From positions 1 to 53,655 of the IMG/VR virus record IMGVR_UViG_3300017971_000063: 53,655 nt of DNA; one strand, 5' to 3'. A program made the translations under genes and the position numbers. Shown piece after piece: positions 3,663 to 33,297 of the stretch (positions within the stretch are counted from its first letter, which is position 1; each line of letters opens with the position of its first letter). Below the pieces are notes generated by a model. The model had not been told where the DNA came from. It made no database searches and saw only the letters and a program-made list of their open reading frames with translations. Origin of the DNA: a virus (taxonomy: Duplodnaviria; Caudoviricetes).

Positions 3663-5852
3663 ATGAATTTGATCGCGATGATAAAAGCATTCGCCGGGAA
3701 TGTCTACGGACCGGCGTCCGGAACCGATAATCAAATCGTTCGCCTCGACGGGACGAGCGGGAAGAAGATTCAGGGAACGACCGGACTCACCGCCGACGAT
3801 TCCGGGAATCTCACCGCGAACGCTTTCCTCGGTGACGGATCGGACTTGACGAATATCGGAGAAGGCGCCGAGACAGTCTTGACGCTTCTCGCGAAGGTCA
3901 ACGAGGCGGCGGGAATCTCGATCGGACAGGCCGTCTATATTTCCGGCGCGACCGGACAATTCCCGCAAGTGTCATTGACGGACAACACGAACTCGGCGAA
4001 ATACGAATGGGTTGGTCTCGCGGCGGAGACGAAGGCGAACAGTCAAAATATTTTGATCCGCATTCGCGGGATCGTTCAAGGAATGGACACGTCACAAGGC
4101 GGATCGTGGTCCGACGGCGACAAGCTCTACTTGACGACGGGCGGAAACTTGACGAACGTCCGTCCGACTTCCGGGACCGTTCAACACGTCGGTCATGTCG
4201 CATACGCTCACGCTTCACAAGGGAAGATTCACGTCGCGATTCACAACGAGAATTACATCGCGGCGGCGGCGAGCGAGGACATTGATCTTCGAATGGGAGA
4301 CGCGGCGGGAGCGACAAAGGTCGCGTTCGAGGACTACGCCGACAACGAGATCGGATCGGTCGACTCAAACGGAAACGCGACGTTCGAGACCGTTCAAGTC
4401 AACGGACGAAAAGTCATGCCGAAAACGCTCGACACCGCCGGGATCAACGCGGCGATCGACGCGCTTGGCGCGACCGGCGGCGAACTCTATCTCCCGCCGG
4501 GAGACTACGACATCACGGCGGCATCGCCGATTGACTACGATCGAACGAAGGTCAAGGGCGGAGGTTCGGGAACAAGAATCCTTTGTACCGGTCGGCTCGT
4601 TTTCGACGCCTCGGCGGGAACACTTTCCGAGGGAGACACCGTCACCGGAAGTATTGGAGCAGGGACGGCGGTCGTCGTCAAGATTGACTACACGAACGGC
4701 ATCCTTTGGTACAACGAAAGGAGCGGAACCGATTTCGTCGACGACGAAGTTCTTTCGTCCGGAGGAAACACGGTCACGGTCAACGGCTCACCGACGGACG
4801 GAACCGGATTTCTCAATATCGGATCAATGAATGACGTTGAAGTTTCCGATCTCATGATCATCGGCGGATCGTCCGATCAATCCGGGACGGCGATCGCAGT
4901 CAACGGCGGCGATCGTCCCTCGATTCACGATATAATTTTTAAGGAACCGAACGGATATGTCGTTGATTTTCAGAACTCGGAGAGCTTCAAGTTCAAGAAC
5001 AACACGCTCAACAAAACGATCGCGAACGCTTCTGTCAACGTGAGATTCAGTTCTGATACGAATTGTTTCGGAGTGATCGAGGGGAACGTCCTTCGACATT
5101 CCGGTCTCGGAGACGTGATCGTATTGGATTCCGAATCGCATTATGTTGTCGTCGCGGATAACACGATCGAGGGCGGTCGGTGGCCGATCTGGGCGCAAGG
5201 CGATCATGCGGTGATCTCAAATAATAATTGTTATAACTCGAACAATGCGATCACCGTCGAGGGCGATCATTGCGTCGTTGAAGGGAACACGAACGACTCG
5301 GACGCGAACGAAGGAATCAAGATCACCGGTTCGCATTGCACCGTCTCCGACAACGTTCTCTTTAATTGCGGGAAATATGCGATCTATGTCACGGGAGCGG
5401 GGGCGACGTATTGCGCGATCACGGGAAACACGATCTACGATACCGGCGCGACTTATTCCGACATCCTTGTCTCCGGCGGCGCTCACTTCGCATCGATTGT
5501 CGGGAACGTTTGCCACGGTGACGAGGTCGGAACGGCGGGATATTCTGGAATTTCGGTCTCGTCGTCGAATCACGTCTTGATCGACGGGAATATTTGTGAC
5601 AATCATAACACGACGGGAATCGAGATCGCGAACTCCGCCGACGTCATGCTCGGTCACAATAACGTTGAGTCGGAGTCGACGCCTTACACGCTCACGAGTC
5701 CGACCGATCTTCAAGAGACCGTCTTGATCGATGGTCGCACAGCACCGGCGGCGACCGTTGGACTCGTGAAGCTCTTCGTCGATTCCGCCGACGGTGATTT
5801 GAAAGTGATCTTCGGAGACGGGACGACGAAAACGATCGTCACCGATGCGTGA
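3663..5852 (+). CDS. Tailspike/depolymerase-like protein with right-handed parallel beta-helix
   Basis: INAAIDAL...GGELYLPPGDYDI start, then repeated I.GN/V.DN beta-helix coils. Confidence 0.75.
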   Translation: MNLIAMIKAFAGNVYGPASGTDNQIVRLDGTSGKKIQGTTGLTADDSGNLTANAFLGDGSDLTNIGEGAETVLTLLAKVNEAAGISIGQAVYISGATGQFPQVSLTDNTNSAKYEWVGLAAETKANSQNILIRIRGIVQGMDTSQGGSWSDGDKLYLTTGGNLTNVRPTSGTVQHVGHVAYAHASQGKIHVAIHNENYIAAAASEDIDLRMGDAAGATKVAFEDYADNEIGSVDSNGNATFETVQVNGRKVMPKTLDTAGINAAIDALGATGGELYLPPGDYDITAASPIDYDRTKVKGGGSGTRILCTGRLVFDASAGTLSEGDTVTGSIGAGTAVVVKIDYTNGILWYNERSGTDFVDDEVLSSGGNTVTVNGSPTDGTGFLNIGSMNDVEVSDLMIIGGSSDQSGTAIAVNGGDRPSIHDIIFKEPNGYVVDFQNSESFKFKNNTLNKTIANASVNVRFSSDTNCFGVIEGNVLRHSGLGDVIVLDSESHYVVVADNTIEGGRWPIWAQGDHAVISNNNCYNSNNAITVEGDHCVVEGNTNDSDANEGIKITGSHCTVSDNVLFNCGKYAIYVTGAGATYCAITGNTIYDTGATYSDILVSGGAHFASIVGNVCHGDEVGTAGYSGISVSSSNHVLIDGNICDNHNTTGIEIANSADVMLGHNNVESESTPYTLTSPTDLQETVLIDGRTAPAATVGLVKLFVDSADGDLKVIFGDGTTKTIVTDA

Positions 5853-5867
5853 GAAATAGAGGGGAGG

Positions 5868-6359
5868 ATGCTCCGACTCGAAGTCACGATCCCGAGGACG
5901 AAGCTTCACGACGACGCGAAGGCGGAGAAGGTTTTCAAGGACAACTTGAAGGCCGCGATCACAGAAGCGTCGACGGTGGCATGGGAAGCGATCGTCGTCA
6001 AGGCGCCGAGGGTCACAGGACGGCTCGCGACTTCAATCGAGTTGAAGATCATCGAGACCTCGGACGGAACGAACGCGAGGATCGGAACTTCGCTCCTCTA
6101 TTTCCTTCCGGTCGAACTCGGACAAAAGCCGCATTGGGCGCCGGTCGAGCCGTTTATATTGTGGGCGAAGCGGAAGTTCGGCGCGACCGAGGAGCAAGCG
6201 GAGCGGATCGGATACGCGGTTCGAGCGTCGGTCCGGAAGAAAGGGACGAAGGGGAAACACTTCACGAAGAACGCGATCCTCTTCTCGCTCGAACGGATTG
6301 AAAAGATTCTTGAAGGCGCCGGAATCAAGGTCGTCGGTGGATTATTGGAGAGTCAATGA
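5868..6359 (+). CDS. HK97 gp10-like neck/tail completion protein
   Basis: APRVTGRLATSI..Y..PVELG..PH..GTKGKHF motif. Confidence 0.75.
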   Translation: MLRLEVTIPRTKLHDDAKAEKVFKDNLKAAITEASTVAWEAIVVKAPRVTGRLATSIELKIIETSDGTNARIGTSLLYFLPVELGQKPHWAPVEPFILWAKRKFGATEEQAERIGYAVRASVRKKGTKGKHFTKNAILFSLERIEKILEGAGIKVVGGLLESQ

Positions 6360-6808: not shown

Positions 6809-8069
6809 CGGTCACTATATATATTTTAACGGACCCGAGAAGAAGGCGATCGAGAAGATGGTCGGCAAGGAGACCGTTCGATTCGCGCGGTTCGTGCCGA
6901 CTCCCGTCACCGAGAAGATCGCGAAATTCTTCGCGTCTCATTACAGATTCGCGAAGGTCGATGGCGATCCGATCGAGTTCGCGAAGAAGAACGGAACCTA
7001 CAAGACCGAGAGAATCGTGATCGAGACGAACACGTCGATGGGCGACACGATCCTTTCGCTTCCCGCGATCAACGAGTTCGCGAAAAAATATTCGTGGTAT
7101 AAAATAACGATGTGCGGACACCCACGAAACGAGGGACTCGTCCGCGATCTTCCGTTCGTCGACGAATACCTTTCGACTTGGGAATTTCACCCCTACCGAC
7201 AACGCTATCCGTTCGCGCGATATATCAAGTTGAAGGACTTCGCCGAGGTCTCTCCGCTTCGCGACAAGATTCACCGCTCGGAGATTTACGCTCGCAAGCT
7301 CGGCGTCAGGATCACGAAGGCGTCGGTCCCGCGTCTCCGACCGAATCCGAAGCTCGCGGAAGGGTTCGGGATTCCCTTCCGGGAAGGCGCGAAGTTCATT
7401 ATCGTTCAGGTCCGATCGGTTTCGGCGCTCCGATCGTGGGACATGGGATGGAGAGCGGATCGGCAATTCCCGAAGGCGACGTTCTTGATCCACATGCTCG
7501 CGAACAACGGCTACAACGTGATCGTGACGGACGTCGAGCGCCTCGATCAATTCAGAGGCGAGCGGATTTTCAACATCACCGGACGGACGAGGACGCCGGA
7601 GGAACTCGCGGCGATCGCGGAGCGGTGCGACGCCTCGGTCACTTGCGGAGATTCCGGATTGATTCATGTCACGGCATCGGTCGGTTGTCCTTCTCTCGGA
7701 ATCTACGGACCGATCGCCTCGAAGAATCGGCTCGCGTTCTACTCGGCGCCGACGATCGCGCTCACGAAGCCGATCGATTGCTCGCCTTGCGAGGAGCACA
7801 CCGGAGGTTGTAAACGACCATGCATGAATTTCTCGGTCGAAGAAGTATATAAAAAGGTCGCCGAACTCGTCGACCTGAAAAAAACGGAGGCGAAACAATG
7901 TTCAGTTCAAAGGACAAGGAAGCTTTCTTCCTCGGAGACCTCGATCTCTACATCGACGGAGACACGAGTCCCTCGGCCTACACGCGAGCCGAAAAAGGAA
8001 TCTCGTTCTCGGCGGAGTTCGCGGAGTTCCTCGAAGGAATCCCGCAAGTTCTCGTCCGCAAGGACTTGA
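6801..8069 (+). CDS. Glycosyltransferase family 9 (heptosyltransferase-like); 3' end overlaps the tail tube gene
   Basis: SMGDTILSLPAI and DSGLIHVTASVGCPSLGIYGP..CSPC..C motifs. Confidence 0.85.
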   Translation: MNNGHYIYFNGPEKKAIEKMVGKETVRFARFVPTPVTEKIAKFFASHYRFAKVDGDPIEFAKKNGTYKTERIVIETNTSMGDTILSLPAINEFAKKYSWYKITMCGHPRNEGLVRDLPFVDEYLSTWEFHPYRQRYPFARYIKLKDFAEVSPLRDKIHRSEIYARKLGVRITKASVPRLRPNPKLAEGFGIPFREGAKFIIVQVRSVSALRSWDMGWRADRQFPKATFLIHMLANNGYNVIVTDVERLDQFRGERIFNITGRTRTPEELAAIAERCDASVTCGDSGLIHVTASVGCPSLGIYGPIASKNRLAFYSAPTIALTKPIDCSPCEEHTGGCKRPCMNFSVEEVYKKVAELVDLKKTEAKQCSVQRTRKLSSSETSISTSTETRVPRPTREPKKESRSRRSSRSSSKESRKFSSART

Positions 8070-18067: not shown

Positions 18068-18240
18068 TCCGGGCCGTTTTCAAAACTCGCTAATAGCGGC
18101 CCGGAGAGAGGGTCCGATCAGATAAATGGTACAAGGACACCGGAAGGCGTGAAAGTCCTCTCCTACGCACCGTGACGCTTCAAATTCGGGCATCCTACGA
18201 CACCTTTTCCGCCAATAACCCCTTTCTTCTATATATAACG

Positions 18241-18327
18241 TGACACGCTGTCAAACCCCTATTTTCGACCCCTGCCAGAATGTCATTTTTTTTCTATTTC
18301 GGGGAAAAAGTGCTTGACAAATTGGCA
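18241..18327. promoter_or_regulatory. Three 13-bp palindromic operator-like sites TG(A/C)CA-N3-TG(T/G)CA
   Basis: TGACACGCTGTCA 18241, TGCCAGAATGTCA 18273, TGACAAATTGGCA 18315. Confidence 0.6.
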
Positions 18328-18342
18328 TCCCCGGACTATGAT
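18314..18342 (+). promoter_or_regulatory. Sigma70-type early promoter
   Basis: TTGACA-17 nt-TATGAT with an upstream A tract. Confidence 0.8.
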
Positions 18343-18391
18343 GTAATTGTCAATTGAGAGTGAGTTCGAATCAACCTCTTGATTGTACACC

Positions 18392-18404
18392 GATCTTTGA
18401 CAAC
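18392..18404 (+). promoter_or_regulatory. boxA-like antitermination element
   Basis: GATCTTTGACAAC in the early leader resembles rrn boxA. Confidence 0.5.
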
Positions 18405-18586
18405 GGGAAGTTCGAAGGACAAAAGGTTTCAGGGCAGGGGCGGGGGACGCGGAAAGTGGTCCCCGGGAAAGCACCGCAAGTCGGCCACCTTGAAACACTC
18501 GGGCAACAAGACCGTCGGAACTATCTCAACCCGGAACCCGACAACGAAATCTCCGGGGGCGACACGACGGCAACCTCTCCCCTTTT
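18405..18586 (+). ncRNA. Structured untranslated leader RNA (unidentified)
   Basis: Nested helices GTTTCAGGG/CCTTGAAAC, GGGGAC/GTCCCC and AGTTC/GAACT; no credible ORF. Confidence 0.45.
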
Positions 18587-18588
18587 AA

Positions 18589-18668
18589 TCAGGTATCAAG
18601 GCGGAGTCGAAGCGAGAGTTTCGGCTCCGAGTTGATCCTTGACGGATCACAACAAACGAAGGGGAGGT
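18589..18668 (+). repeat. Structured intergenic element copy 1
   Basis: TCAGGTATCAA / inner stem / TTGATCCTTGA / GGATC / AAGGGGAGG. Confidence 0.85.
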
Positions 18669-18673
18669 CGAAC

Positions 18674-18856
18674 ATGGACGACAAGAAATTCGCAGTTTAT
18701 CAGGGGATCAGGGATACGGTTATTTCCGCGATGTATCGCGCGGACTACAACCGGAAGGACATCGAGGACGCGCTTCGGATGTTACGTGAGGACATCAACG
18801 AAGAGTTCGACGATCCGAAACCGGAACCGAAGAAATTCTCTCCTCACAACAAGTAG
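18674..18856 (+). CDS. Early hypothetical protein (60 aa)
   Basis: SD AAGGGGAGG; stop abuts copy 2. Confidence 0.75.
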   Translation: MDDKKFAVYQGIRDTVISAMYRADYNRKDIEDALRMLREDINEEFDDPKPEPKKFSPHNK

Positions 18857-18933
18857 TCGAGGTTTCAACAAAGGGTCGGAGCGATCCGGCCCTTGATTGA
18901 ACCCTTGAAGGGTTCTCAACAACGAAGGGGAGG
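18857..18933 (+). repeat. Structured intergenic element copy 2
   Basis: TCGAGGTTTCAA-CA-AAGGGTCGGA-GCGA-TCCGGCCCTT-GA-TTGAACCCTTGA-AGGGTTC..SD. Confidence 0.92.
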
Positions 18934-18938
18934 TTCAC

Positions 18939-19238
18939 ATGAAAAAGTATTCGAGCGAGAAACATCTGGAGCAAGTCGAGAAACAGATCGAGCGCGAGGC
19001 GAAGGGAATCGTCTACGAGAATTTACAGAAAGCGGTTCACGCTCTCGTCGAACTTCACGACGACGCTTCGAAGTCCTATCACAAGGGCGGCGATTCTCTC
19101 GACGACAAGCGCGGATACAACGTTCGGTGTTTGATCTATCTCGACTTGATCCAGAAGATCAAGAAGATCGAAGGTAAATTCGACCCGAATGAGATTATCG
19201 AAGAGCCGGAAGTCCGGATCGTTCGAGTCGTCAAATAG
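18939..19238 (+). CDS. Early hypothetical protein (99 aa)
   Basis: SD; flanked by element copies. Confidence 0.75.
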   Translation: MKKYSSEKHLEQVEKQIEREAKGIVYENLQKAVHALVELHDDASKSYHKGGDSLDDKRGYNVRCLIYLDLIQKIKKIEGKFDPNEIIEEPEVRIVRVVK

Positions 19239-19322
19239 TCGAGGTTTCAACAAGAGATCGGACTTCGGTCCGGTCTCTGATTGAACCCTTGCGGTTCAAA
19301 AACAAAACATCGAAGGGGAGGT
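19239..19322 (+). repeat. Structured intergenic element copy 3
   Basis: Inner stem GAGATCGGAC-TTCG-GTCCGGTCTC. Confidence 0.92.
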
Positions 19323-19327
19323 TTACA

Positions 19328-19594
19328 ATGAACAAGATCAAAGTTTCCTACGATTTGGCGAACGTGGTCGATGCGGCGAAGTGGATCAAGGGCGACGTCG
19401 AGAAGATCGTCGACGAGGCGACGTTCCGGACGCGGGAACTCGTCGAGATCGGCGACGATCGGGTCGAGGACGTCGTCGAGAGCTTCAAAGAACGAGCGCT
19501 CTCGGAAATTACCGACGCAAAGAAACACCTTGAAGCGCTTCACTCATGGATCGAGCGCGTAGGAAATCGCAAGAGCAAGGATCAGGAGAAATAG
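19328..19594 (+). CDS. Early hypothetical protein (88 aa)
   Basis: SD; flanked by element copies. Confidence 0.75.
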   Translation: MNKIKVSYDLANVVDAAKWIKGDVEKIVDEATFRTRELVEIGDDRVEDVVESFKERALSEITDAKKHLEALHSWIERVGNRKSKDQEK

Positions 19595-19673
19595 TCGAGG
19601 TTTCAACAAAGGGTCGGAGCGATCCGGCCCTTGATTGAACCCTTGAAGGGTTCTCAATTCAAGAAGGGGAGGT
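19595..19673 (+). repeat. Structured intergenic element copy 4 (core identical to copy 2)
   Basis: About 63 nt identical to copy 2. Confidence 0.92.
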
Positions 19674-19678
19674 TCACC

Positions 19679-19828
19679 ATGAAGATGTATCAAGTTTATA
19701 TTCTCAACGCGGACGGGACGACTCAATATACAAACGTATATACAGCGAACAGAAAGTTCGCCGACGATTACGCCGCTTCGATGACAAGTCTCGGATATTG
19801 CGCGGTTGTGGAAACAGTCGAGAAATAA
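19679..19828 (+). CDS. Early hypothetical protein (49 aa)
   Basis: SD; flanked by element copies. Confidence 0.65.
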   Translation: MKMYQVYILNADGTTQYTNVYTANRKFADDYAASMTSLGYCAVVETVEK

Positions 19829-19908
19829 TCGAGGTTTCAACAAGAGATCGGACTTCGGTCCGGTCTCTGATTGAACCCTTGCGGTTCAACAACAAGGAAA
19901 GGGGAGGT
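19829..19908 (+). repeat. Structured intergenic element copy 5 (core identical to copy 3)
   Basis: About 61 nt identical to copy 3. Confidence 0.92.
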
Positions 19909-19913
19909 TCACC

Positions 19914-20264
19914 ATGAAGCTTGCAAAGTTCGAGGAAAAGGTTTTCGTCGAGATCGTTCGCGGACAGTACAGCGGCGAGACGGGATTCTCCGACGTGATC
20001 CCGGAGGACATCTACAAGAATCTCGGATGTTCACCGAAGGCCGTCGGCGGCGCTCTTTCTTCTCTCGATAAAAAGGGACTCGTTTTCGTGGAAGATTTGA
20101 GCGGCCAACTCGACAACGGGATTCGAACGATTATCTATCTCACAACTAAAGCGTGGAAGATGGTCGGCGTCACCGACGAGGAGATCGGAAACGGTTATTA
20201 CGACCGCGAGACGATCGGCAAGTTCATGCGGTCGGCGATCGAGAAAGGGATCGTCGCAGAGTGA
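19914..20264 (+). CDS. Early protein, possible winged-helix domain
   Basis: IYKNLGCSPKAVGGALSSLDKKGLV..IIYLT pattern. Confidence 0.6.
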   Translation: MKLAKFEEKVFVEIVRGQYSGETGFSDVIPEDIYKNLGCSPKAVGGALSSLDKKGLVFVEDLSGQLDNGIRTIIYLTTKAWKMVGVTDEEIGNGYYDRETIGKFMRSAIEKGIVAE

Positions 20265-20342
20265 GGTTTCAACGAAGGATCGGAACGAAAGTTCCGGTCC
20301 TTGATTGAACCTTCACGGTTCAAAATCAAGGAAAGGGGAGGT
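20261..20342 (+). repeat. Structured intergenic element copy 6
   Basis: GTGAGGTTTCAA..GGATCGGAAC-GAAA-GTTCCGGTCC..TTGAACCTTCAC-GGTTCAA. Confidence 0.9.
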
Positions 20343-20347
20343 TGAGA

Positions 20348-20602
20348 ATGAAAACGATCACGACTCACAAGTTCGCAACGACGACGGAGTTCGACATCAA
20401 CAAGCGGATCGAACTCGGGATTCCGCTCACCCGGAAACAAGTCAAGGCGAAGAAACAACGGAAAGCGAATCCGCCGACCGCTCTCGGCTATCAACGGAAA
20501 CACGGCGTCGAGTGCGTTCCGGTCTACACTTCCGACGGTCATTGCTTCATCGCTCGGAAGGACGTCGCCGATCGCCTTCGGAGGAACGGCGAGTCAAGTT
20601 GA
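20348..20602 (+). CDS. Early hypothetical basic protein (84 aa)
   Basis: SD; flanked by element copies. Confidence 0.7.
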   Translation: MKTITTHKFATTTEFDINKRIELGIPLTRKQVKAKKQRKANPPTALGYQRKHGVECVPVYTSDGHCFIARKDVADRLRRNGESS

Positions 20603-20679
20603 CGTTTCAACAACGGCGCCGGACTTCGGTCCGGCTCCGGATTGAACCGTCAAGGTTCAACAATTCAGGAAGGGGAGGT
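20599..20679 (+). repeat. Structured intergenic element copy 7
   Basis: TTGACGTTTCAA..GCCGGAC-TTCG-GTCCGGC..TTGAACCGTCAA-GGTTCAA. Confidence 0.9.
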
Positions 20680-20685
20680 TTCAAA

Positions 20686-21126
20686 ATGGTCAAAAATATA
20701 ACGGTAGGAACGCGCGGAAACAAGAAGGTCAAGATCACGCTCCGTCGCAAGACTCACATGCGCCACCCGAACGGATGGTCAATCAAGGTCTACGATCCGG
20801 AGACGAAGATCACGACGGAAGGTTATACGAACCGTCTCGAACAACACGTCGCTCTCGAAAAGGCGATCGCTCTCGCTCACAAGATCGAGAATCGGAACGA
20901 GCTTCTCAACGCTCTCCGGACGATCACCGGCGACGCGGACATTCGCGGCTTTTGCTTCTCGCAAAATGACGCGGCGATCCGCGATCAGATCGCGAAGGGC
21001 GAAAAGGTCTCGGACGCCGAACTCGCGCGACACGCTCGGGCGAAGAAGGAATACTACGAGATCGTTCGACCGCTTTTTAAGACGGCGTTCGCGGCGTTCA
21101 AACACTTCCGCGACAAACAACTTTGA
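20686..21126 (+). CDS. Early hypothetical protein (146 aa)
   Basis: SD; flanked by element copies. Confidence 0.75.
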   Translation: MVKNITVGTRGNKKVKITLRRKTHMRHPNGWSIKVYDPETKITTEGYTNRLEQHVALEKAIALAHKIENRNELLNALRTITGDADIRGFCFSQNDAAIRDQIAKGEKVSDAELARHARAKKEYYEIVRPLFKTAFAAFKHFRDKQL

Positions 21127-21210
21127 TCGAGGTTTCAAGTCCGAGGTCGAATTTCGGTTCGGCCTCGTGTTGAATCTTCGGAGCAAGGTTCAAAAAATAG
21201 AAGGGGAGGT
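21127..21210 (+). repeat. Structured intergenic element copy 8
   Basis: TCGAGGTTTCAA..CGAGGTCGAAT-TTCG-GTTCGGCCTCG..TTGAATCTTCGG..GGTTCAA. Confidence 0.88.
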
Positions 21211-21214
21211 CAAC

Positions 21215-21478
21215 ATGGAATACGACGAGATTTTAAGTTTCGCGTCCGAGGCCGATCGGTTACGGTCGAGCGCTTCGGAGATCAGCAGGAAAGCGGGACG
21301 GGTCGCCGGAGAGATCAACGAGTTCGTGACTACGCTCGCGCTCAAGAAGGACGATCCGGGTCGGTGTCTCAAGGCGTCGCGAGTAATGTTGAAAAATATC
21401 GTCACGCGATCGCTCGAACTATCGGACGAGATCGAGGAACTTCTCGGACGCTTCGAGATCGAAGAAAGCAAAAAGTAA
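21215..21478 (+). CDS. Early hypothetical helical protein (87 aa)
   Basis: SD; flanked by element copies. Confidence 0.7.
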   Translation: MEYDEILSFASEADRLRSSASEISRKAGRVAGEINEFVTTLALKKDDPGRCLKASRVMLKNIVTRSLELSDEIEELLGRFEIEESKK

Positions 21479-21480
21479 AG

Positions 21481-21560
21481 TCGACGCTTCAACGTGGGGA
21501 TCGAAGTTCGCTTCGGTCTCCGATTGAGTCGTCGAGACTCAACAACAAAGAAGGGGAGGT
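21481..21560 (+). repeat. Structured intergenic element copy 9
   Basis: TCGACGCTTCAA..GGGGATCGAAG-TTCG-CTTCGGTCTCC..TTGAGTCGTCGA-GACTCAA. Confidence 0.88.
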
Positions 21561-21564
21561 CGTT

Positions 21565-21936
21565 ATGAAAAATAGAATGTTGTATAACGAGGACGGCTCG
21601 ATTGCGATTCCGTTTTCGAAAGTGAGTTTCTTCGCCGTCGATCAACCTCGCGGGAAGAAGTTCACGATCGAAGCGTATTTCGTCCCGGGACACTCCGACG
21701 AGGAACGCTCCTTCACGATCAGCAAACACGAGACCGAGGAAGAAGCGAAGTCCGCGTTGAAGGCGATCCGGGAAGCGGAATCGCGGAACGATCTCGCGCT
21801 CGCGGTGAGTATCCTCAAGAACGCTCGCCGCGCAATGCGTTTGACGGAAGCGGAAGATTCTCCCGTCAAGGAACTCCGGCTCGAAGGGTTCGACGCCGCG
21901 ATCGACGTTCTCTCGAAAGTGTCAAGCGGTTCGTGA
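21565..21936 (+). CDS. Early hypothetical protein (123 aa)
   Basis: SD from copy 9. Confidence 0.7.
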   Translation: MKNRMLYNEDGSIAIPFSKVSFFAVDQPRGKKFTIEAYFVPGHSDEERSFTISKHETEEEAKSALKAIREAESRNDLALAVSILKNARRAMRLTEAEDSPVKELRLEGFDAAIDVLSKVSSGS

Positions 21937-22073
21937 CGAACGATCACCGCGACGAGACAAGGGCGATCTCGGAGGGACGGTCTCTCGGGGCCGTCCCTCG
22001 AAACCCTCAACAAACGGCCTCTCCCGACCTTGTCACGCCGAGAAAAAAAAGCGCAAAAAAAAGAAAAAAGTGC

Positions 22074-22103
22074 TTGACAATTTGGCATACATGACCCTAT
22101 AAT
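22074..22103 (+). promoter_or_regulatory. Sigma70-type promoter with overlapping palindromic operator
   Basis: TTGACA-18 nt-TATAAT, A-tract UP element, TGACAATTTGGCA over the -35 box. Confidence 0.8.
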
Positions 22104-22158
22104 ATAGTTACGTTGAGAGTCAAGCTTGACTCTCGAAATTCAGGAAGGGGAGGACAGA

Positions 22159-22989
22159 ATGGCCTACACGAAGAAGAGCAAGGAGTTTTACGAAAACCGG
22201 AAAAAGGAGATCGAAGGGAAGCTCGACAAGGTTCTCCGCGAGTCGTTCACCGACGCCGAGAAGATGCGGAAACTCTCGCTTCACTTCCGGATCACCGGTC
22301 TTTACAACTATTCGTTCATCAATTCGATCTTGATCGCTTCGCAGGGCGGGAAGCTCGCGCAGTCGTTCAAGGCGTGGAAGAAACTCGAACGTCACGTCAA
22401 GAAGGGCGAGCGCTCGAAGATTTTTATCTTCATTCCCTATTTCAAGAACGTCGACGAGAAGAACGCGATCACCGGCAAGACCGAGACGATCAAGAAGCTC
22501 GTCGGGTTCGGGACCGGTCCGGTTTTCGACATCGATCAGACGGACGGAAAGCCGCTCGAATACGATCACAACTCCGAGGACGTGATCGACGTCGACTATA
22601 CCGAACTAAAAGTCAAGGTCGAGAAAGGATTCGACGTCGAGATCACCGAGAAGTACACGGGAAGCGCTCGCGGATACACCGACGGGAAGCGGATCGCGAT
22701 CTCCGAGATGTCGAACAATACGGACAAGGTCAAGACGCTCGTCCATGAACTCGCTCACGTCGTCCTCGAACATTGCGGGAAGGGTCGCAAGGCGCGGAAC
22801 GTGGTCGAGGTCGAAGCGGAAGCGGCGACGCTCTTCGTCGAATCGTTCCTCGGCTACGACGTCGAACTCTCCGAGACCTACATTGCGAATTGGAAGTCGT
22901 CGGAGATCGGGCGGGACAGCTACAAGAACGTAATCCGCGCGGCGGACAAGATCATCAAGTCGCTTTTCATCGAGAAAAAAGCGGCGTAG
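22159..22989 (+). CDS. ArdC-like antirestriction/ssDNA-binding protein with zincin-like domain
   Basis: YNYSFINSILI..SFKAWKKLERHVKKGE..VFDIDQTDG; HELAH..EVEAE. Confidence 0.85.
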   Translation: MAYTKKSKEFYENRKKEIEGKLDKVLRESFTDAEKMRKLSLHFRITGLYNYSFINSILIASQGGKLAQSFKAWKKLERHVKKGERSKIFIFIPYFKNVDEKNAITGKTETIKKLVGFGTGPVFDIDQTDGKPLEYDHNSEDVIDVDYTELKVKVEKGFDVEITEKYTGSARGYTDGKRIAISEMSNNTDKVKTLVHELAHVVLEHCGKGRKARNVVEVEAEAATLFVESFLGYDVELSETYIANWKSSEIGRDSYKNVIRAADKIIKSLFIEKKAA

Positions 22990-22992
22990 GTT

Positions 22993-23072
22993 GCGAGGTT
23001 TCAACGACGAGGTCGGAGCGAAAGTTCCGGCCTCGGATTGAACCCTTGCGGTTCAAATCAAGGAAGGGGAGG
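22993..23072 (+). repeat. Structured intergenic element copy 10
   Basis: GCGAGGTTTCAA..GAGGTCGGAGC-GAAA-GTTCCGGCCTC..TTGAACCCTTGC-GGTTCAA. Confidence 0.9.
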
Positions 23073-23078
23073 TCGAGA

Positions 23079-23510
23079 ATGAAAAAAAAGTTGTGGAGCG
23101 AGTTTCGGAAGTCCCTCGAAGGGATCGCCGACCGATACACCGCGAAAGCGGAACGGATCGAACAGTCCGACGACATCGCCGACGGTGACTCCTTCCTTTC
23201 CGGAGCGGAGAAGGCCGCGCTCGCCGCGAAATATTACGGCAAGGCCGAAGCGGTCGAGATGGTCGACGAGTTCGTCGACGAAGCTCGGTCGGAAAGTGAA
23301 GAGGTCAAACGCTCGATCGTTGCTCCGATCGTTCTCTCGAAGGTGAATGATTTGATCGTCGCGGAATCGGCGGAGTTGGAAAGTGCGAAGCGGAAGAATC
23401 TCTCGACGAGTGCGATCGTCGCTCGTCTCACCGCCGAAGTCGATCAACTCGGTCGGCTCAAAAAACAAGTCGAGGGATTCGTCAACCGGCCAGTCGACAA
23501 AGAGAATTGA
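23079..23510 (+). CDS. Early hypothetical helical protein (143 aa)
   Basis: SD; flanked by element copies. Confidence 0.7.
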   Translation: MKKKLWSEFRKSLEGIADRYTAKAERIEQSDDIADGDSFLSGAEKAALAAKYYGKAEAVEMVDEFVDEARSESEEVKRSIVAPIVLSKVNDLIVAESAELESAKRKNLSTSAIVARLTAEVDQLGRLKKQVEGFVNRPVDKEN

Positions 23511-23590
23511 TCGACGCTTCAAGGCGTGATCGGACTCCGGTCCGGTCACGAGTTGAGTCGTCGAGACTCGCAGGATCAAGGAAGGGGAGG
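23511..23590 (+). repeat. Structured intergenic element copy 11
   Basis: TCGACGCTTCAA..CGTGATCGGAC-TCCG-GTCCGGTCACG..TTGAGTCGTCGA-GACTC. Confidence 0.88.
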
Positions 23591-23597
23591 TTTCAAA

Positions 23598-23864
23598 ATG
23601 GAAACGCCGGATATTTACAGCGACGAGAATTTGGGGAAACTCAAATTCAAGAAGGACCGACCTCTCAAATCGTGGAAGGTCATGCGGTTCTTTCGCGCGC
23701 GAGGATGGTCGTTGATCCTCACCGTCTACGAGGCCGAGATCGCGAAGCGACACGTCGAGACGTTGATCGCGAATGGCGTCGCCGTCTCCGATCTCATGAT
23801 CGTCGAAACGATCGAGATCGAAACGCGGGTCGAAGTAGATCGAGAGTCGGAGGTTTCAAAATGA
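23598..23864 (+). CDS. Early hypothetical protein (88 aa)
   Basis: SD from copy 11. Confidence 0.7.
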   Translation: METPDIYSDENLGKLKFKKDRPLKSWKVMRFFRARGWSLILTVYEAEIAKRHVETLIANGVAVSDLMIVETIEIETRVEVDRESEVSK

Positions 23865-24049
23865 GAAAACTCGAAAAGGAAGAATTGAAGGACGCGCTCG
23901 GCGTCGTCGCTTGCTCGTTTTCCTTGAAAGGGAAAGCGAAGCGTTGCGCGAAGTGCGAGTTCGTCGAGGCGTGTCGGCGGATCGCGTCCCGGGTCAAGTC
24001 GATCGTTGAGTCGGTCGAGAAGTCCGGACGAAGAAGGAAAACGGAATAG
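23861..24049 (+). CDS. Small Cys-rich hypothetical protein
   Basis: ATGA overlap with previous gene; C..CAKC..C. Confidence 0.6.
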   Translation: MRKLEKEELKDALGVVACSFSLKGKAKRCAKCEFVEACRRIASRVKSIVESVEKSGRRRKTE

Positions 24050-24139
24050 AATGACCTCATGGGGAGGGACCGGCGGTGATCGTATTGACTCCGCTTGATC
24101 CCTCCCCGACCCTTCCTTCCGGGTCGAAGAAAAAAACGC

Positions 24140-24174
24140 TTGACAAAACGTCAAGACAATGAGACAACTCGTCA
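24140..24174 (+). promoter_or_regulatory. Promoter -35 box with two operator-like palindromes
   Basis: TTGACA at 24140; TGACAAAACGTCA 24141 and AGACAACTCGTCA 24162; -10 box weak. Confidence 0.5.
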
Positions 24175-24202
24175 ATCGAATCTACCAAAAGGGAGGACGT
24201 GA

Positions 24203-24490
24203 ATGACAGAATCGAAGAAGAGCAAGGGAACGGTTCGTCCGGATATTCGGACGATCCGACTCCGCCTTGAAACGAGGAAGCGGCTCGAAACGTTCGCGCA
24301 CCTACAAGCGCGGTCCGTTTGGAGGGTCGCCGATCACATTCTTTCTCAATACCTTGACGAGAAGATCGGATGTCAGTTCTACTCGTCCGAGGGCCGCAAG
24401 TGCAACTTAAAACAATGCGGCGTGAAGTGCGGCGGGATCAAGGCCGCTTGCGAACACCCGACATATAAGTCGGGAGAACTCTACGTTTGA
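24203..24490 (+). CDS. Ribbon-helix-helix DNA-binding protein with Cys-rich tail
   Basis: RTIRLRLETRKRLETFAHLQARSVWRVADHILSQYL has RHH periodicity. Confidence 0.65.
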   Translation: MTESKKSKGTVRPDIRTIRLRLETRKRLETFAHLQARSVWRVADHILSQYLDEKIGCQFYSSEGRKCNLKQCGVKCGGIKAACEHPTYKSGELYV

Positions 24491-32355: not shown

Positions 32356-33297
32356 ATGGCGCGGAGACGAATGATTGACCCCAAATTTTGGGCGAGTGAG
32401 AAGGTCGGGAAACTCACGTTTCGACAACGGTTGTTTTTGATCGGACTTTTCAGCAACGCGGACGACGAGGGAAGGTTGATCGGAGCGCCGACGCTTCTTC
32501 GGTCGACGATCTTCCCATACGACGATATTCCGATCGAGGAAATCGAAAAAGACCTTGCCGCTCTCGAAAGAACGAAGGACCGCCCGGGTTCTCTCGTTCG
32601 ATACGAAATTGACGGATCGAAGTTTATCGCGTTGACGAATTGGAAGAAATATCAAACGATCAATCGACCTCAAAAGAGCTTACTTCCCGAACCCAAAGGA
32701 ATTGCGCGTTCATTGATTGATTCAATGAATGATTCAGTGAACGGATCAGTGAATGATTCACGGGGTCATTCATTGAACGATTCACGAGCAAAGGAAAGGA
32801 AAGGAAAGGAAAAGAAAGGAAGTACGTCCGAGAAAAATCCCTCGGACCCGATCCCCGAAGTCGCTCCGCTCCTTGAAAAACTCGAACTTCACATTCGTAC
32901 GATAATCCCGGGGAAGAACTTCAAGGCGAATTGGAGATCGAAGCAGGGCCGCGCGTTCCGGCTCCTCCGCGACGCCGACGGAATAGATTTCCCGGCTCAA
33001 CTGAAAACGCTCGAATGGGTACGGACCGGATCGTCACGCGACGCGATATTCTGGCGCAAGAATATCCTTTCCGCCGAGAAGTTCCGGATTCAATACGAGA
33101 AACTCGAAGCGGCGAGGACGGTCGAATCTCGTGCTTCTGGAAACGTGACGCGGCTCTCGACGTGGACTTGCCCGAAGTGCGGGAAGAAGGTCGAGGTCGG
33201 GAACGGTCGTCACCATGCGACGTGTACGAAGTGCGGCGAAGAATTATGGTCGTCCGATCCGAAGGTCCGAAAGGAGTCCCGGGTTGTCGTTAGCTAA
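32356..33297 (+). CDS. Phage replication initiator protein
   Basis: MARRRMIDPKFW..LFLIGL.SNADDEGR..TIFPYD..NWKKYQ.I; C-terminal FWRKNILSAEKFR.QYEKL and Zn ribbon. Confidence 0.85.
   Translation: MARRRMIDPKFWASEKVGKLTFRQRLFLIGLFSNADDEGRLIGAPTLLRSTIFPYDDIPIEEIEKDLAALERTKDRPGSLVRYEIDGSKFIALTNWKKYQTINRPQKSLLPEPKGIARSLIDSMNDSVNGSVNDSRGHSLNDSRAKERKGKEKKGSTSEKNPSDPIPEVAPLLEKLELHIRTIIPGKNFKANWRSKQGRAFRLLRDADGIDFPAQLKTLEWVRTGSSRDAIFWRKNILSAEKFRIQYEKLEAARTVESRASGNVTRLSTWTCPKCGKKVEVGNGRHHATCTKCGEELWSSDPKVRKESRVVVS
32710..32822. repeat. Iteron-like 12-bp tandem repeats plus purine tract (putative replication origin)
   Basis: TCATTGATTGAT TCAATGAATGAT TCAGTGAACGGA TCAGTGAATGAT TCACGGGGTCAT TCATTGAACGAT, then repeated AAAGG. 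Confidence 0.75.

What the first reader, a model, noticed from the sequence alone, without database searches (positions are those of the whole stretch)
18589..23597. Array of 11 covarying structured elements that divide the early region into single-gene cassettes
Seen: copies start at 18589, 18857, 19239, 19595, 19829, 20261, 20599, 21127, 21481, 22993 and 23511. Copies 2-11 begin at or within a few nt of the upstream stop codon; copy 1 follows the non-coding leader. All end in AAGGGGAGG followed by an ATG. Layout: strand A (e.g. TCGAGGTTTCAA), small internal loop, 7-12 bp inner stem with a short loop (TTCG, GAAA, GCGA, GAGA, TCCG), strand B (e.g. TTGAACCCTTGA), strand C, A/C-rich linker, SD. 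A and B covary: TCGAGG/CCTTGA, GTGAGG/CTTCAC, TTGACG/CGTCAA, TCGACG/CGTCGA, ATCAA/TTGAT. A pyrimidine-pyrimidine mismatch stays at a fixed position, and the inner stem keeps a U-G wobble in 10 of 11 copies. That wobble argues for selection on single-stranded + strand nucleic acid, most likely RNA. Inference: an unrecognised cis-acting RNA motif that cuts or protects the polycistronic early transcript into monocistronic units. The stem-internal loop-stem geometry resembles the RNase III sites between T7 early genes, but self-cleavage or a phage-protein binding site is also possible. The cargo (mostly 49-146 aa orphans, plus an ArdC-like gene) looks like an anti-defence or host-takeover island.
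Basis: partly seen in the sequence, partly recalled or inferred. Interest (0 to 1): 0.92.

Follow-up and report, generated by a model that had tools for sequence, protein, structure and literature searches.

The report
Repeated RNA hairpin modules between phage early genes
An uncultured phage separates its early genes with eleven copies of a structured RNA module (a long hairpin, a refolding strand and a strong ribosome-binding site) that sits where phage T7 has its RNase III cutting sites, so it is probably a new sequence family of that known kind of signal.

Summary
A covariance model finds exactly 11 + strand copies (77-99 bits), and the minus strand scores at most 34 bits. Each copy runs from the upstream stop codon to the next ATG. 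It holds a 21-23 bp irregular hairpin capped by a UNCG or GNRA tetraloop, an A/C-rich linker and the ribosome-binding site AAGGGGAGG.

Covariation is strong: 96.5% of cells are paired, 10 of 21 pairs show compensatory changes, and G.U outnumbers A.C by 22 cells to 1. This points to + strand RNA.

- Strand C is complementary to strand B and covaries with it, giving a mutually exclusive B:C hairpin in 11 of 11 copies.
- A Y.Y mismatch and a U.G wobble lie about 12 helix steps apart.

Both features recur in the only relative found. That phage fragment shares nothing with this phage except the ArdC-like gene that its element follows.

No Rfam family, recombinase or phage RNase III was found. No RNA reads exist for this stretch.

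Best reading (0.45): these are host RNase III-type processing sites placed like those of T7. After cutting, B refolds onto C and leaves a 5' hairpin plus a strong SD on each mRNA. The 5' UTR of the transcript from the second promoter looks like that product. Cleavage itself is not shown.

Verdict: a new variant of a known kind, of moderate to high interest.

The parts
18314..18342 (+). Promoter P1 (TTGACA-17-TATGAT) of the first early operon
   Evidence: 11 of 12 consensus matches. It shares a 24-nt block with P2 (family D13).
18577..18585 (+). Anti-SD-like stretch in the leader, predicted to pair with the SD of gene 1 (18658-18666) across e1
   Evidence: Minimum-energy fold of 18349-18690. 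Mean probability that the SD is unpaired is 0.06 with the leader and 0.84 without it.
18589..18676 (+). Element e1 (hairpin 18589-18642, strand C, linker, SD, ATG of g1)
   Evidence: R1 77.8 bits. Hairpin -31.4 kcal/mol, z -7.0. GAGA loop, 22 bp.
18857..18941 (+). Element e2 (hairpin identical to e4)
   Evidence: R1 82.6 bits. -30.9 kcal/mol, z -6.6. GCGA loop.
19239..19330 (+). Element e3 (hairpin identical to e5)
   Evidence: R1 93.8 bits. UUCG loop.
19595..19681 (+). Element e4
   Evidence: R1 85.6 bits. GCGA loop.
19829..19916 (+). Element e5
   Evidence: R1 98.6 bits. UUCG loop.
20261..20350 (+). Element e6 (the upstream TGA lies inside strand A)
   Evidence: R1 90.1 bits. -33 kcal/mol, z -7.8. 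GAAA loop.
20599..20688 (+). Element e7 (the upstream TGA lies inside strand A; C-G in place of the U.G wobble)
   Evidence: R1 91.3 bits. Pair table.
21127..21217 (+). Element e8 (U.U mismatch; 9-bp B:C hairpin)
   Evidence: R1 77.3 bits..
21481..21567 (+). Element e9 (B changed to UUGAGUC, C changed to GACUCAA, mismatch C.U)
   Evidence: R1 80.3 bits..
22074..22103 (+). Promoter P2 (TTGACA-18-TATAAT) of the second early operon
   Evidence: 12 of 12 consensus matches.
22113..22158 (+). 5' UTR of the P2 transcript: 10-bp hairpin (22113-22136), linker and AAGGGGAGG. It looks like an element lacking strand A and the inner stem.
   Evidence: Hairpin -13.6 kcal/mol. R1 partial hit 22110-22162, 19.2 bits. 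The 17 nt of linker plus SD are identical to e7.
22159..22989 (+). ArdC-like anti-restriction gene (276 aa)
   Evidence: ArdcN 4.8e-7 and Peptidase_M78 1.1e-4. PHROG 7245 anti-restriction, 2e-13.
22993..23081 (+). Element e10, directly after the ArdC-like gene. It is the counterpart of the element after the ArdC-like gene of the related fragment G001.
   Evidence: R1 84.8 bits. -36.6 kcal/mol, z -7.1. G001 counterpart 34 bits, E 8.5e-6.
23511..23600 (+). Element e11 (UCCG loop; mismatch C.U)
   Evidence: R1 84 bits..
18674..21936 (+). Nine small early genes, one per element: g1-g9 of 60, 99, 88, 49, 116, 84, 146, 87 and 123 aa
   Evidence: ORFs starting at the ATG after each SD. No Pfam family above its cut-off in any of the 9. 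PHROG hits of unknown function only for g3 and g5.
23079..24049 (+). g10 (143 aa), g11 (88 aa) and g12 (62 aa). g12 overlaps the g11 stop (ATGA) and has no element before it.

Best explanation
Each spacer in the two host-polymerase early operons is an RNA module of about 88 nt. In order, it contains:
- the stop codon of the upstream gene;
- a 21-23 bp irregular hairpin (strands A and B around an inner stem) capped by a UNCG or GNRA tetraloop;
- strand C;
- an unstructured A/C-rich linker;
- a very strong Shine-Dalgarno sequence;
- the ATG of the next gene.

The hairpin is most likely a recognition and cutting site for a double-strand-specific endoribonuclease, most simply the host's RNase III. 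This is what happens at the five sites between the T7 early genes. Cutting would turn the polycistronic early transcript into single-gene mRNAs.

Once strand A is cut away or loosened, strand B refolds onto strand C. Each downstream mRNA would then begin with a small 5'-terminal hairpin followed by the strong SD, which is a known recipe for a stable and well translated mRNA. The upstream mRNA would keep a hairpin at its 3' end. At e1 the cut would also remove a leader segment that masks the SD of gene 1.

Shown: the sequence, the fold, covariation of both helices, strand specificity, placement, and conservation in one unrelated phage.

Inferred: that the genes are co-transcribed, that the RNA is cut, which enzyme cuts it, and that the products are stabilised.
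For: 1. Real, selected + strand RNA structure:
- 11 of 11 copies fold alike.
- 96.5% of cells are paired, 10 of 21 pairs are compensatory, and 0 of 500 shuffles reach the score.
- 22 G.U cells against 1 A.C cell.
- 11 of 11 loops are UNCG or GNRA.
- Minus-strand folds are 6-12 kcal/mol weaker.

2. Size and shape of a double-strand RNase substrate:
- Helix length stays at 21-23 bp although the inner stem varies between 10 and 12 bp.
- A Y.Y mismatch (11 of 11) and a U.G wobble (10 of 11) lie about 12 helix steps apart. The G001 element shows the same two features 11-12 steps apart.

3. Same placement as the T7 early RNase III sites:
- The T7 intergenic regions fold into paralogous irregular hairpins whose lower stem starts at the upstream stop codon (genes 0.4 and 0.7), in 63-81 nt spacers, 15-30 nt before the next SD.
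- The T7 early precursor is cut at five such sites, and R1.1 RNA is cut once into 47- and 13-nt products (passages read in PMC4858673).

4. The B:C helix is selected:
- It forms in 11 of 11 copies, 6-9 bp, -7.2 to -9.5 kcal/mol.
- 97% of cells are paired, and 2 of 6 pairs are compensatory in 5 cells.
- In e1, strands A, B and C all changed together at one position. In e9 and e11, B and C changed together while A:B kept its mismatch.
- With A blocked, B:C is the predicted fold in 6 of 11 copies (e1, e2, e3, e4, e7, e9), and in e11 it is 6 bp. The cost is only 3-10 kcal/mol.

5. A natural look-alike of the proposed product. The P2 transcript starts 2-4 nt before a 10-bp hairpin, followed by the same linker and SD.

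6. The operons have strong promoters and no + strand intrinsic terminator inside the array.

7. Precedent in a Gram-positive phage. SP82 early RNA has B. subtilis RNase III sites (reference list and text of PMC4838370). Mutating its ribosome-binding site shortens the mRNA half-life (passage in PMC7509114).

8. The leader anti-SD masks the SD of g1 only while the leader is attached.
Against: - No cleavage data of any kind exist. No RNA run holds the stretch.
- The host is unknown, so the specificity of its RNase III cannot be judged.
- The phage encodes no RNase III of its own. That is neutral.
- There is no sequence relation to the T7 sites (R1 scores at most 6.5 bits, E above 1, on the T7 early region).
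- SD accessibility is not predicted to change on 'processing' in e2-e11, so no translational gain is visible except at e1.
- With strand A blocked, B pairs with the SD-proximal region instead of C in 4 of 11 copies (e5, e6, e8, e10).
- In G001 the first promoter's 5' UTR has no hairpin.
- A terminating ribosome would also free strand B, so B:C does not require a cut.
- The covariation comes from paralogues in one genome plus a single outside copy. Two pairs of copies are identical.
Confidence: 0.45

Rival explanations
1. An uncut intercistronic insulator and translation-initiation module. The hairpin starts at the stop codon, so every terminating ribosome melts strand A. Strand C then captures the freed strand B so that it cannot pair with the SD region. 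With or without upstream translation, each orphan gene sees the same open linker and strong SD. The stable hairpin also blocks 3' exonucleases.
For: - The stop codon abuts or lies inside strand A in 8 of 10 downstream copies, and is 2-3 nt away in the other 2.
- With A blocked, B pairs either with C or with the GGUUCA just after the SD (e5, e6, e8, e10), so B is a potential SD-masking strand that C could neutralise.
- SD accessibility is broadly similar in all predicted states of e2-e11.
- The linker is A/C-rich and unstructured.
Against: - It does not explain why helix length (21-23 bp), a Y.Y mismatch and a U.G wobble one turn apart are conserved, even in G001.
- It does not explain why a primary transcript (P2) that has no strand A still carries a B:C-like 5' hairpin.
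- Complementarity of B to the post-SD region does not covary: it is absent in e1, e9 and e11.
Confidence: 0.25
2. An operator for a dedicated RNA-binding protein or endoribonuclease, either phage-encoded (one of the orphan early proteins) or from the host. Possible analogues are a Cas6-like or RegB-like nuclease or a translational repressor. It would time or shut off all early genes together.
For: - Sequence, not only structure, is conserved at two places: UUCAA/UUGAA and the apical UCGG(A)/(U)CCGG with its U.G wobble. The apical motif recurs in G001.
- The two helix irregularities lie one turn apart, on one face of the helix.
- The uniform AAGGGGAGG in 12 of the 13 early genes resembles the SD-targeted control by T4 RegB (abstract of PMC1702504 in the listing).
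Against: - No candidate protein was found. None of the 12 small early proteins has a family above threshold.
- G001 shares only the ArdC-like gene with this phage, so a shared phage-encoded partner would have to be ArdC itself or a host factor.
- The apical loops switch freely between UNCG and GNRA.
Confidence: 0.12
3. Chiefly a DNA-level feature. The repeated ~90-bp boundaries serve as homology for swapping single-gene cassettes between co-infecting phages (as PeSL motifs do in T4-like phages), or as folded single-strand recombination sites like integron attC.
For: - e2=e4 and e3=e5 are identical over 65-80 nt but flank unrelated genes (families D10 and D11).
- Assemblies of two runs break exactly at these repeats.
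- The ArdC-like gene with its downstream element is the only thing shared with G001.
- PeSL-mediated shuffling is documented (abstract of PMC4122927).
Against: - Strand asymmetry of 22 G.U to 1 A.C, and RNA-type tetraloops.
- Compensatory changes preserve pairing rather than identity.
- The complete genome has no tyrosine recombinase and none lies beside the array.
- The attC R' consensus GTTRRRY fits only 2 of 11 copies (read).
- The elements carry no promoter, unlike PeSLs.
- Recombination at the repeats is more likely a side effect than the selected function.
Confidence: 0.08
4. A self-cleaving ribozyme, or a mimic of a host CRISPR repeat (an RNA anti-CRISPR) placed in an anti-defence island.
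For: - The inner hairpin followed by GAUUGAAC loosely recalls CRISPR repeats that end in AUUGAAAC (recalled, not tested).
- The neighbourhood holds an anti-restriction gene.
Against: - No ribozyme or other Rfam family appears even at E up to 5.
- A simple continuous hairpin has no catalytic core.
- The stem sequence varies freely among copies, whereas a mimic must keep one sequence.
- The G001 element lacks the GAUUGAAC motif.
Confidence: 0.04

Closest known systems
RNase III processing sites between the early genes of phage T7 (R0.3, R0.5, R1, R1.1, R1.3)
   Same: - Several paralogous irregular hairpins lie in 60-90 nt spacers of a host-polymerase early operon.
- The lower stem starts at the upstream stop codon, and the next SD follows 15-30 nt later.
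- The first gene product is an anti-restriction protein in T7 (annotated gene 0.3). An ArdC-like gene sits in the array here.
- The T7 early precursor is cut at five sites (PMC4858673, passages).
   Different: - No sequence similarity.
- 11 copies here, not 5.
- The helix here is longer and more regular: 21-23 bp and -28 to -37 kcal/mol, against about 16-19 bp and -18 to -26 kcal/mol for whole T7 spacers.
- The irregularities here are a 1x1 Y.Y mismatch and a small symmetric loop, not one large asymmetric loop.
- A covarying third strand C gives an alternative hairpin.
- The SD is uniform.
- Cleavage is not shown here.
- The T7 site positions used for folding were recalled from memory.
B. subtilis RNase III sites and the polypurine 5' stabiliser in phage SP82 early mRNA
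   Same: An early phage transcript with conserved hairpin processing sites, followed by a strong SD-like purine tract that stabilises the downstream RNA. This is the two-part logic proposed here.
   Different: - No sequence was compared.
- I saw only the citations and one sentence on the ribosome-binding-site mutations (PMC4838370; PMC7509114).
- The original papers (Panganiban and Whiteley 1983; Hue et al. 1995) were not held. Details of their architecture are recalled.
[quoted passage not shown]
   Same: - An SD-containing repeat precedes the start codons of a subset of non-structural genes, all in one orientation.
- About half of them are preceded by imperfect inverted repeats with a short spacer.
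- The function is still unknown (PMC3203893 passages; PMC12699233 passages).
   Different: - The SAS consensus GGGATAGGAGCCC is absent here.
- ESAS arms are 17 bp with a 4-13 bp spacer.
- No third strand, no tetraloops and no covariation analysis are reported in the passages read.
- The supplementary motif tables of those papers could not be seen.
PeSL (promoter-early stem-loop) cassettes of T4-like phages
   Same: Repeated regulatory motifs flank single novel genes in plastic regions and act as points of exchange (abstract of PMC4122927). Here, identical copies flank unrelated genes.
   Different: PeSLs are composite terminator and promoter units. The elements here have no promoter and no U-tract terminator, and they lie inside operons.
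Integron attC sites and gene cassettes
   Same: Promoterless single-gene cassettes are separated by imperfect palindromes with conserved unpaired bases. Structure is conserved more than sequence.
   Different: - No integrase anywhere in the complete genome.
- The R' consensus fits 2 of 11 copies.
- Selection here is on the + (mRNA) strand with G.U pairs and RNA tetraloops.
- The SD is part of the repeat.
- The attC features are recalled, not looked up.

Membership tests
Phage early-operon RNase III processing sites (T7 type) | Lies between cistrons of an early transcript made by the host RNA polymerase | tested here: met
   - Two consensus sigma-70 promoters score 11 of 12 and 12 of 12, and no + strand intrinsic terminator lies inside the array.
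- Every element sits between a stop codon and the next SD.
- Co-transcription itself is inferred.
Phage early-operon RNase III processing sites (T7 type) | About two turns of double-stranded RNA interrupted by a mismatch or internal loop | tested here: met
   21-23 bp in 11 of 11 copies, with a 1x1 Y.Y mismatch and a 2x2 or 3x2 loop. T7 spacers folded for comparison.
Phage early-operon RNase III processing sites (T7 type) | Cut by RNase III in vivo or in vitro | not testable with these tools
   No RNA run holds the stretch. No biochemical tool is available.
Phage early-operon RNase III processing sites (T7 type) | Sequence homology to the T7 sites | tested here: not met
   Model R1 on the T7 early region gives a best score of 6.5 bits, E 1.3.
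Any Rfam family (including self-cleaving ribozymes) | Covariance-model match at gathering score | tested here: not met
   - Only two tRNAs in the whole window at gathering score.
- In 18200-24300 at E up to 5, 8 weak hits, all far below their gathering scores, and none a ribozyme apart from a 14.7-bit archaeal RNase P hit (gathering score 84).
Cluster K SAS/ESAS | 13-bp SAS consensus GGGATAGGAGCCC 3-8 bp before the start codon | tested here: not met
   The conserved motif here is AAGGGGAGG(T). The consensus was taken from PMC3203893.
Cluster K SAS/ESAS | Imperfect inverted repeats just upstream of the start-associated motif, in non-structural genes, in one orientation | tested here: met
   This is a likeness of layout only, not homology.
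Integron (attC cassettes) | IntI-type tyrosine recombinase with attI next to the array | tested here: not met
   PF00589 has no match in the complete genome at E up to 0.1, while the control rings in 14 of 14 genomes. The flanking genes are a transglycosylase, a phosphoesterase and proteins of unknown function.
Integron (attC cassettes) | R'' RYYYAAC and R' GTTRRRY core sites (recalled consensus) | tested here: not met
   GTTRRRY fits e8 and e11 only, 2 of 11 copies, read from the alignment.
PeSL cassettes | Early promoter joined to a terminator stem-loop | tested here: not met
   No promoter-like site lies in any hairpin, strand C or linker. The one weak site (9 of 12 matches, 19673-19702) begins in the last bases of e4 and runs into g4. 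There is no + strand terminator with a U tract.
ArdC anti-restriction proteins (the one named cargo gene) | ArdC N-terminal domain plus a metalloprotease-like C-terminal domain | tested here: met
   ArdcN 30.4 bits (cut-off 22.6). Peptidase_M78 22.4 bits (cut-off 22) at residues 164-208. PHROG 7245, 2e-13.

The most novel reading that the evidence does not exclude
The module is a three-strand RNA switch (A:B against B:C). It would be flipped either by the ribosome that terminates on strand A or by a cut, and it would define portable, self-sufficient single-gene expression cassettes. Because the boundary travels with its gene, such cassettes could be exchanged between otherwise unrelated phages without any integrase. 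The ArdC-like gene and its element are the only thing shared with G001, and identical boundaries flank unrelated orphan genes. This would be an RNA-defined counterpart of integron cassettes for anti-defence and host-takeover genes.
Probability: 0.15. Interest if true: 0.8.

Novelty: new variant of a known kind. Interest (0 to 1): 0.58.

Why it matters
Intercistronic processing hairpins are textbook for T7, but few phage families have been examined. Start-associated repeats in other phages (SAS/ESAS) are still unexplained, according to the passages read in a 2025 paper.

This element is an unusually clean case:
- It has 11 copies with rich covariation.
- It has two fixed helix irregularities one turn apart.
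- It has a covarying third strand that predicts a defined refolding step.

These features give sharp, cheap tests: RNase III cleavage in vitro, mismatch and wobble mutants, and reporters in rnc-plus and rnc-minus cells.

If it works as proposed, it is a compact natural part that turns any gene into an independently stable, strongly translated unit inside an operon. That would be useful for operon design. It would also be a marker for finding early or anti-defence gene arrays in uncultured phages.

Tried and rejected
**Search for relatives**
- 'phages' collection, distant mode, with 18300-24200: no match.
- IMG/VR pattern GGTTTCAAC..GATTGAACC: 22 single chance hits, 0 hits with model R1.
- Protein anchors in IMG/VR: the 418-aa downstream protein and the large terminase found nothing.
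- The ArdC-like protein gave L031 (G001, 58% identity) and L032 (40% identity). L032 has no element.
- Metagenome scan with the two-protein ArdC alignment: only the same G001 contig and one 24%-identity locus.
- Genome contigs with the same alignment: nothing.
One 24-bit hit in L078 turned out to be a promoter inside a short hairpin of a different phage type.
- G001 shares only the ArdC-like gene with the window by tblastn.

**RNA evidence**
- No RNA holder is listed for the stretch.
- Contigs of two DNA runs were laid on the stretch. They were identical to the window and had equal contig lengths in both runs, so they may be one data set filed twice.
- The contigs break at the identical repeats and show no variants in the elements. 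They are therefore uninformative on covariation or cassette turnover.
- One low-depth joint (20187 to 22805, side 20) was not interpretable.

**Ideas considered and dropped**
- Strand B as a conserved anti-SD: its complementarity to the SD region is absent in e1, e7, e9 and e11.
- The elements as promoters or terminators.
- A phage-encoded RNase III.
- An integron.
- The weak R1 hit at 32719-32812 is an iteron-like repeat, not an element.
- The sliding-window hairpin scans of the window and of G001 were too noisy in coding sequence to count hairpins.
- MAFFT put the G001 inner stem one column out of register, so no pair count was made on alignment A4. The comparison was made from fold ladders instead.
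- Alignment A3 holds only the 11 window copies and adds nothing to A1.
- Supplementary files of the SAS/ESAS papers were not seen.

Full report
**What the window is.** The window is a complete 53,655-bp virus record with direct terminal repeats. It is a tailed phage:
- a capsid-protease fusion, tape measure, large terminase, portal and head-morphogenesis proteins;
- a transglycosylase, two family-9 glycosyltransferases and a methyltransferase;
- two tRNA genes.

Its GC content is 55%. Near-identical DNA occurs in one sediment and one seawater data set. No other phage in the 'phages' collection or in IMG/VR resembles it at the DNA level, nor through its terminase or the 418-aa protein next to the array.

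**The observation.**
- A covariance model of the 11 copies (alignment A1, model R1), run over the whole window with filters off, returns exactly these 11 on the + strand at 77-99 bits. Their reverse complements reach at most 34 bits, and nothing else exceeds 20 bits.
- The module spans the whole spacer from stop codon to ATG (85-92 nt).
- RNAfold gives one architecture in 11 of 11 copies. From the base upwards it has:
  - an outer stem of 5-6 bp;
  - a 1x1 pyrimidine-pyrimidine mismatch;
  - a 5-bp UUCAA/UUGAA stem (AUCAA/UUGAU in e1);
  - a small purine-rich internal loop;
  - an inner stem of 10-12 bp;
  - a tetraloop.
- The total is 21-23 bp.
- Ten hairpins were folded on their own (e4 was omitted because it is identical to e2). 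Energies are -27.8 to -36.6 kcal/mol, with z-scores of -4.3 to -7.8 against dinucleotide shuffles.

**Covariation and strand.**
- On A1, 96.5% of 230 cells form standard pairs, against 86.1% in column shuffles.
- 10 of 21 pairs change on both sides, in 28 cells. 0 of 500 shuffles reach the covariation score.
- Sliding the 3' partner by one to three columns collapses pairing to 24-61% (RNAalifold agrees).
- A caveat applies. The copies are paralogues in one genome, and e2=e4 and e3=e5 are identical hairpins. The number of independent events is therefore smaller than the cell counts suggest.
- Three results say the selected molecule is + strand RNA:
  - G.U or U.G fills 22 cells, while A.C or C.A fills 1 cell.
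  - All 11 apical loops belong to the two RNA-specific stable classes: 6 UNCG and 5 GNRA.
  - The five minus strands that were folded are 6-12 kcal/mol weaker than their + strands.

- 'Strand C' is the complement of the 5' half of strand B. A 6-9 bp B:C hairpin (-7.2 to -9.5 kcal/mol) can form in 11 of 11 copies.
- C tracks B: UUGAACC/GGUUCAA in most copies, UGAUCC/GGAUCA in e1, UUGAGUC/GACUCAA in e9, and UGAGUC/GACUCG in e11.
- On A1 the six central B:C pairs are 97% paired. Two pairs are compensatory in five cells. 0 of 500 shuffles reach the score, and the slid controls fall to 6-55%.
- At alignment column 53, all three strands changed together in e1 (A-U with strand A, U-A with strand C).
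- In e9 and e11, B became G-U there, C followed to restore Watson-Crick pairs, and strand A tolerated a wobble.
- The neighbouring B position (column 54) always pairs with C (CG 8, UA 2, UG 1) and never with A. The opposing letters are U.C in 8 copies, U.U in 1 and C.U in 2. The mismatch therefore survived even when both of its letters changed.
- A:B and B:C are thus two mutually exclusive helices, and both appear to be under selection.
- The long hairpin wins thermodynamically. Blocking strand A costs only 3-10 kcal/mol. It yields the inner hairpin plus B:C in 7 of 11 predictions. In the other four (e5, e6, e8, e10), B pairs with the GGUUCA just after the SD.

**A fixed geometry.** Reading the fold ladders, the Y.Y mismatch and the conserved U.G wobble (10 of 11 copies, C-G in e7) are separated by about 12 helix steps in every copy. 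This holds although the internal loop (2x2, 3x2 or 2x1) and the inner-stem length vary. Two irregularities about one turn apart lie on one face of the helix, which is what a bound protein would read.

**One outside relative.**
- The ArdC-like protein has a 57-58% identical homologue on a 32.6-kb, 43% GC, roughly 45%-complete phage fragment (G001, locus L031).
- By tblastn this fragment shares nothing else with the window.
- Directly after its ArdC-like stop codon lies a 25-bp hairpin of -33 to -35 kcal/mol, which R1 detects at 34 bits, E 8.5e-6.
- Most of its stem letters differ from the window copies. It nevertheless keeps several features:
  - the UCGAG start;
  - a C.U mismatch at the same place;
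  - an AUCA/UGAU stem like that of e1;
  - the apical UCGGA...UCCGG with its U.G wobble, 11-12 steps from the mismatch;
  - a downstream strand complementary to B (an 8-bp alternative hairpin, predicted once A is blocked);
  - an A-rich linker and an SD.
- It also has the same promoter 15-mer as P1 and P2.
- The module is therefore older than either phage, and its odd features are maintained. This is still a single comparison.
- All other searches for relatives were blank (see Tried and rejected).

**Operon context.**
- P1 (18314-18342) and P2 (22074-22103) are near-perfect sigma-70 promoters. There is no + strand intrinsic terminator inside the array.
- The first unit is P1, a 240-nt leader, then e1-g1 through e9-g9.
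- The second unit is P2, the ArdC-like gene, e10-g10, e11-g11, and g12 overlapping the g11 stop.
- The P2 transcript should start 2-4 nt before a 10-bp hairpin (22113-22136, -13.6 kcal/mol). That hairpin is followed by a linker and SD whose 17 nt are identical to those of e7. It looks like an element without strand A and the inner stem.
- In the leader, CUCCCCUUU (18577-18585) is predicted to pair with the SD of g1 across e1. The SD is 6% unpaired with the leader attached and 84% unpaired without it.
- No comparable masking is predicted for e2-e11.

**Cargo.**
- None of g1-g12 (49-146 aa) reaches a Pfam cut-off.
- PHROG hits exist only for g3 and g5, and both are of unknown function.
- g5 has no homologue but itself in the 5.8-billion-protein index.
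- 'Early' and 'anti-defence' are inferences from the promoters and from ArdC alone.

**Comparison with what is known.**
- No Rfam family matches.
- The closest system is the T7 early region. [quoted passage not shown]
- I folded the five T7 spacers, using site positions recalled from memory and coordinates from the annotated record. They are paralogous irregular hairpins. In two of them the lower stem begins at the upstream stop codon. They lie in 63-81 nt spacers, 15-30 nt before the next SD. That is the same placement as here.
- There is no sequence relation to T7. The hairpins here are longer and more regular, and T7 shows no obvious third strand.
- SP82 of B. subtilis offers the second half of the logic: RNase III sites in early RNA, and dependence of RNA half-life on a strong ribosome-binding site (PMC4838370; PMC7509114). 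The original papers were not available.
- The layout also parallels the SAS/ESAS repeats of Cluster K mycobacteriophages, whose function is still open. The identical copies flanking unrelated genes recall PeSL-mediated shuffling.
- Integron, PeSL, ribozyme and CRISPR-repeat readings each fail a defining test or lack support (membership table).

**Verdict.**
- The element is real and RNA-level. It is not in Rfam release 15, and my paper searches, which sought analogues rather than this sequence, turned up no description of it.
- I rate 'cis-acting intercistronic RNA module controlling mRNA processing, stability or translation' at about 0.85.
- Within that, an RNase III-type cut followed by B:C refolding into a 5' hairpin plus strong SD is the best single mechanism, at 0.45.
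- Next comes an uncut insulator flipped by the terminating ribosome (0.25), then a dedicated protein operator (0.12), then a primarily recombinational role (0.08).
- None of these is excluded by the data. The decisive experiments are simple and are listed separately.
- It is a new variant of a known kind. The three-strand design and the fixed mismatch-wobble geometry are the parts that would surprise a specialist.

Noticed in passing
window 32710-32821: About six copies of a 12-bp unit spaced 12 bp apart, which also form 28-nt inverted arms. They are followed by an (AAGGA)n purine tract. All of this lies inside a 308-aa ORF (32371-33297) with a weak zinc-ribbon match. It looks like an iteron-type replication origin inside an initiator gene.
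   Followed up: partly
window 18577-18585 with 18658-18666: An anti-SD-like stretch at the end of the 240-nt P1 leader is predicted to sequester the SD of the first early gene across element e1. The SD is 6% unpaired with the leader and 84% unpaired without it.
   Followed up: partly
L031 5129-5196 (record G001): A second very stable intergenic hairpin (27 bp, -38 kcal/mol) lies between a stop codon and an SD in the related fragment. Model R1 does not detect it, and its relation to the element family is unclear.
   Followed up: partly
L032 about 4280-4316, 5890-5935 and 7010-7055: The phage carrying the 40%-identical ArdC-like gene has a different repeat of about 25 nt (CAAACAGGCAAAAYCAYYAAAA-like) just upstream of three SD and start sites. 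This is another start-associated repeat, seen by eye only.
   Followed up: no
window 18854-19858: e2=e4 and e3=e5 are identical over 65-80 nt and alternate (X, Y, X, Y) around unrelated genes. Public assemblies break exactly at these repeats, so the order of cassettes g2-g4 in the record rests on reads that span the repeats.
   Followed up: partly
window 18305-18328, 22065-22088, 24131-24154; L031 52-66: A shared A-rich upstream block plus -35 region (AAAAAGTGCTTGACA) heads the early promoters of this phage and of G001, which is otherwise unrelated.
   Followed up: partly
window 21972-21999 and about 24060-24110: G+C-rich hairpins without a U tract follow the last gene of each early operon, just before the next promoter. 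They could be factor-dependent or non-canonical terminators. Seen in the sequence only.
   Followed up: no
L078 1500-4500 (minus strand): An unrelated low-GC phage fragment carries a consensus promoter, often inside or beside a short hairpin, in front of nearly every small gene. It is the opposite strategy to the processed operon proposed here.
   Followed up: no
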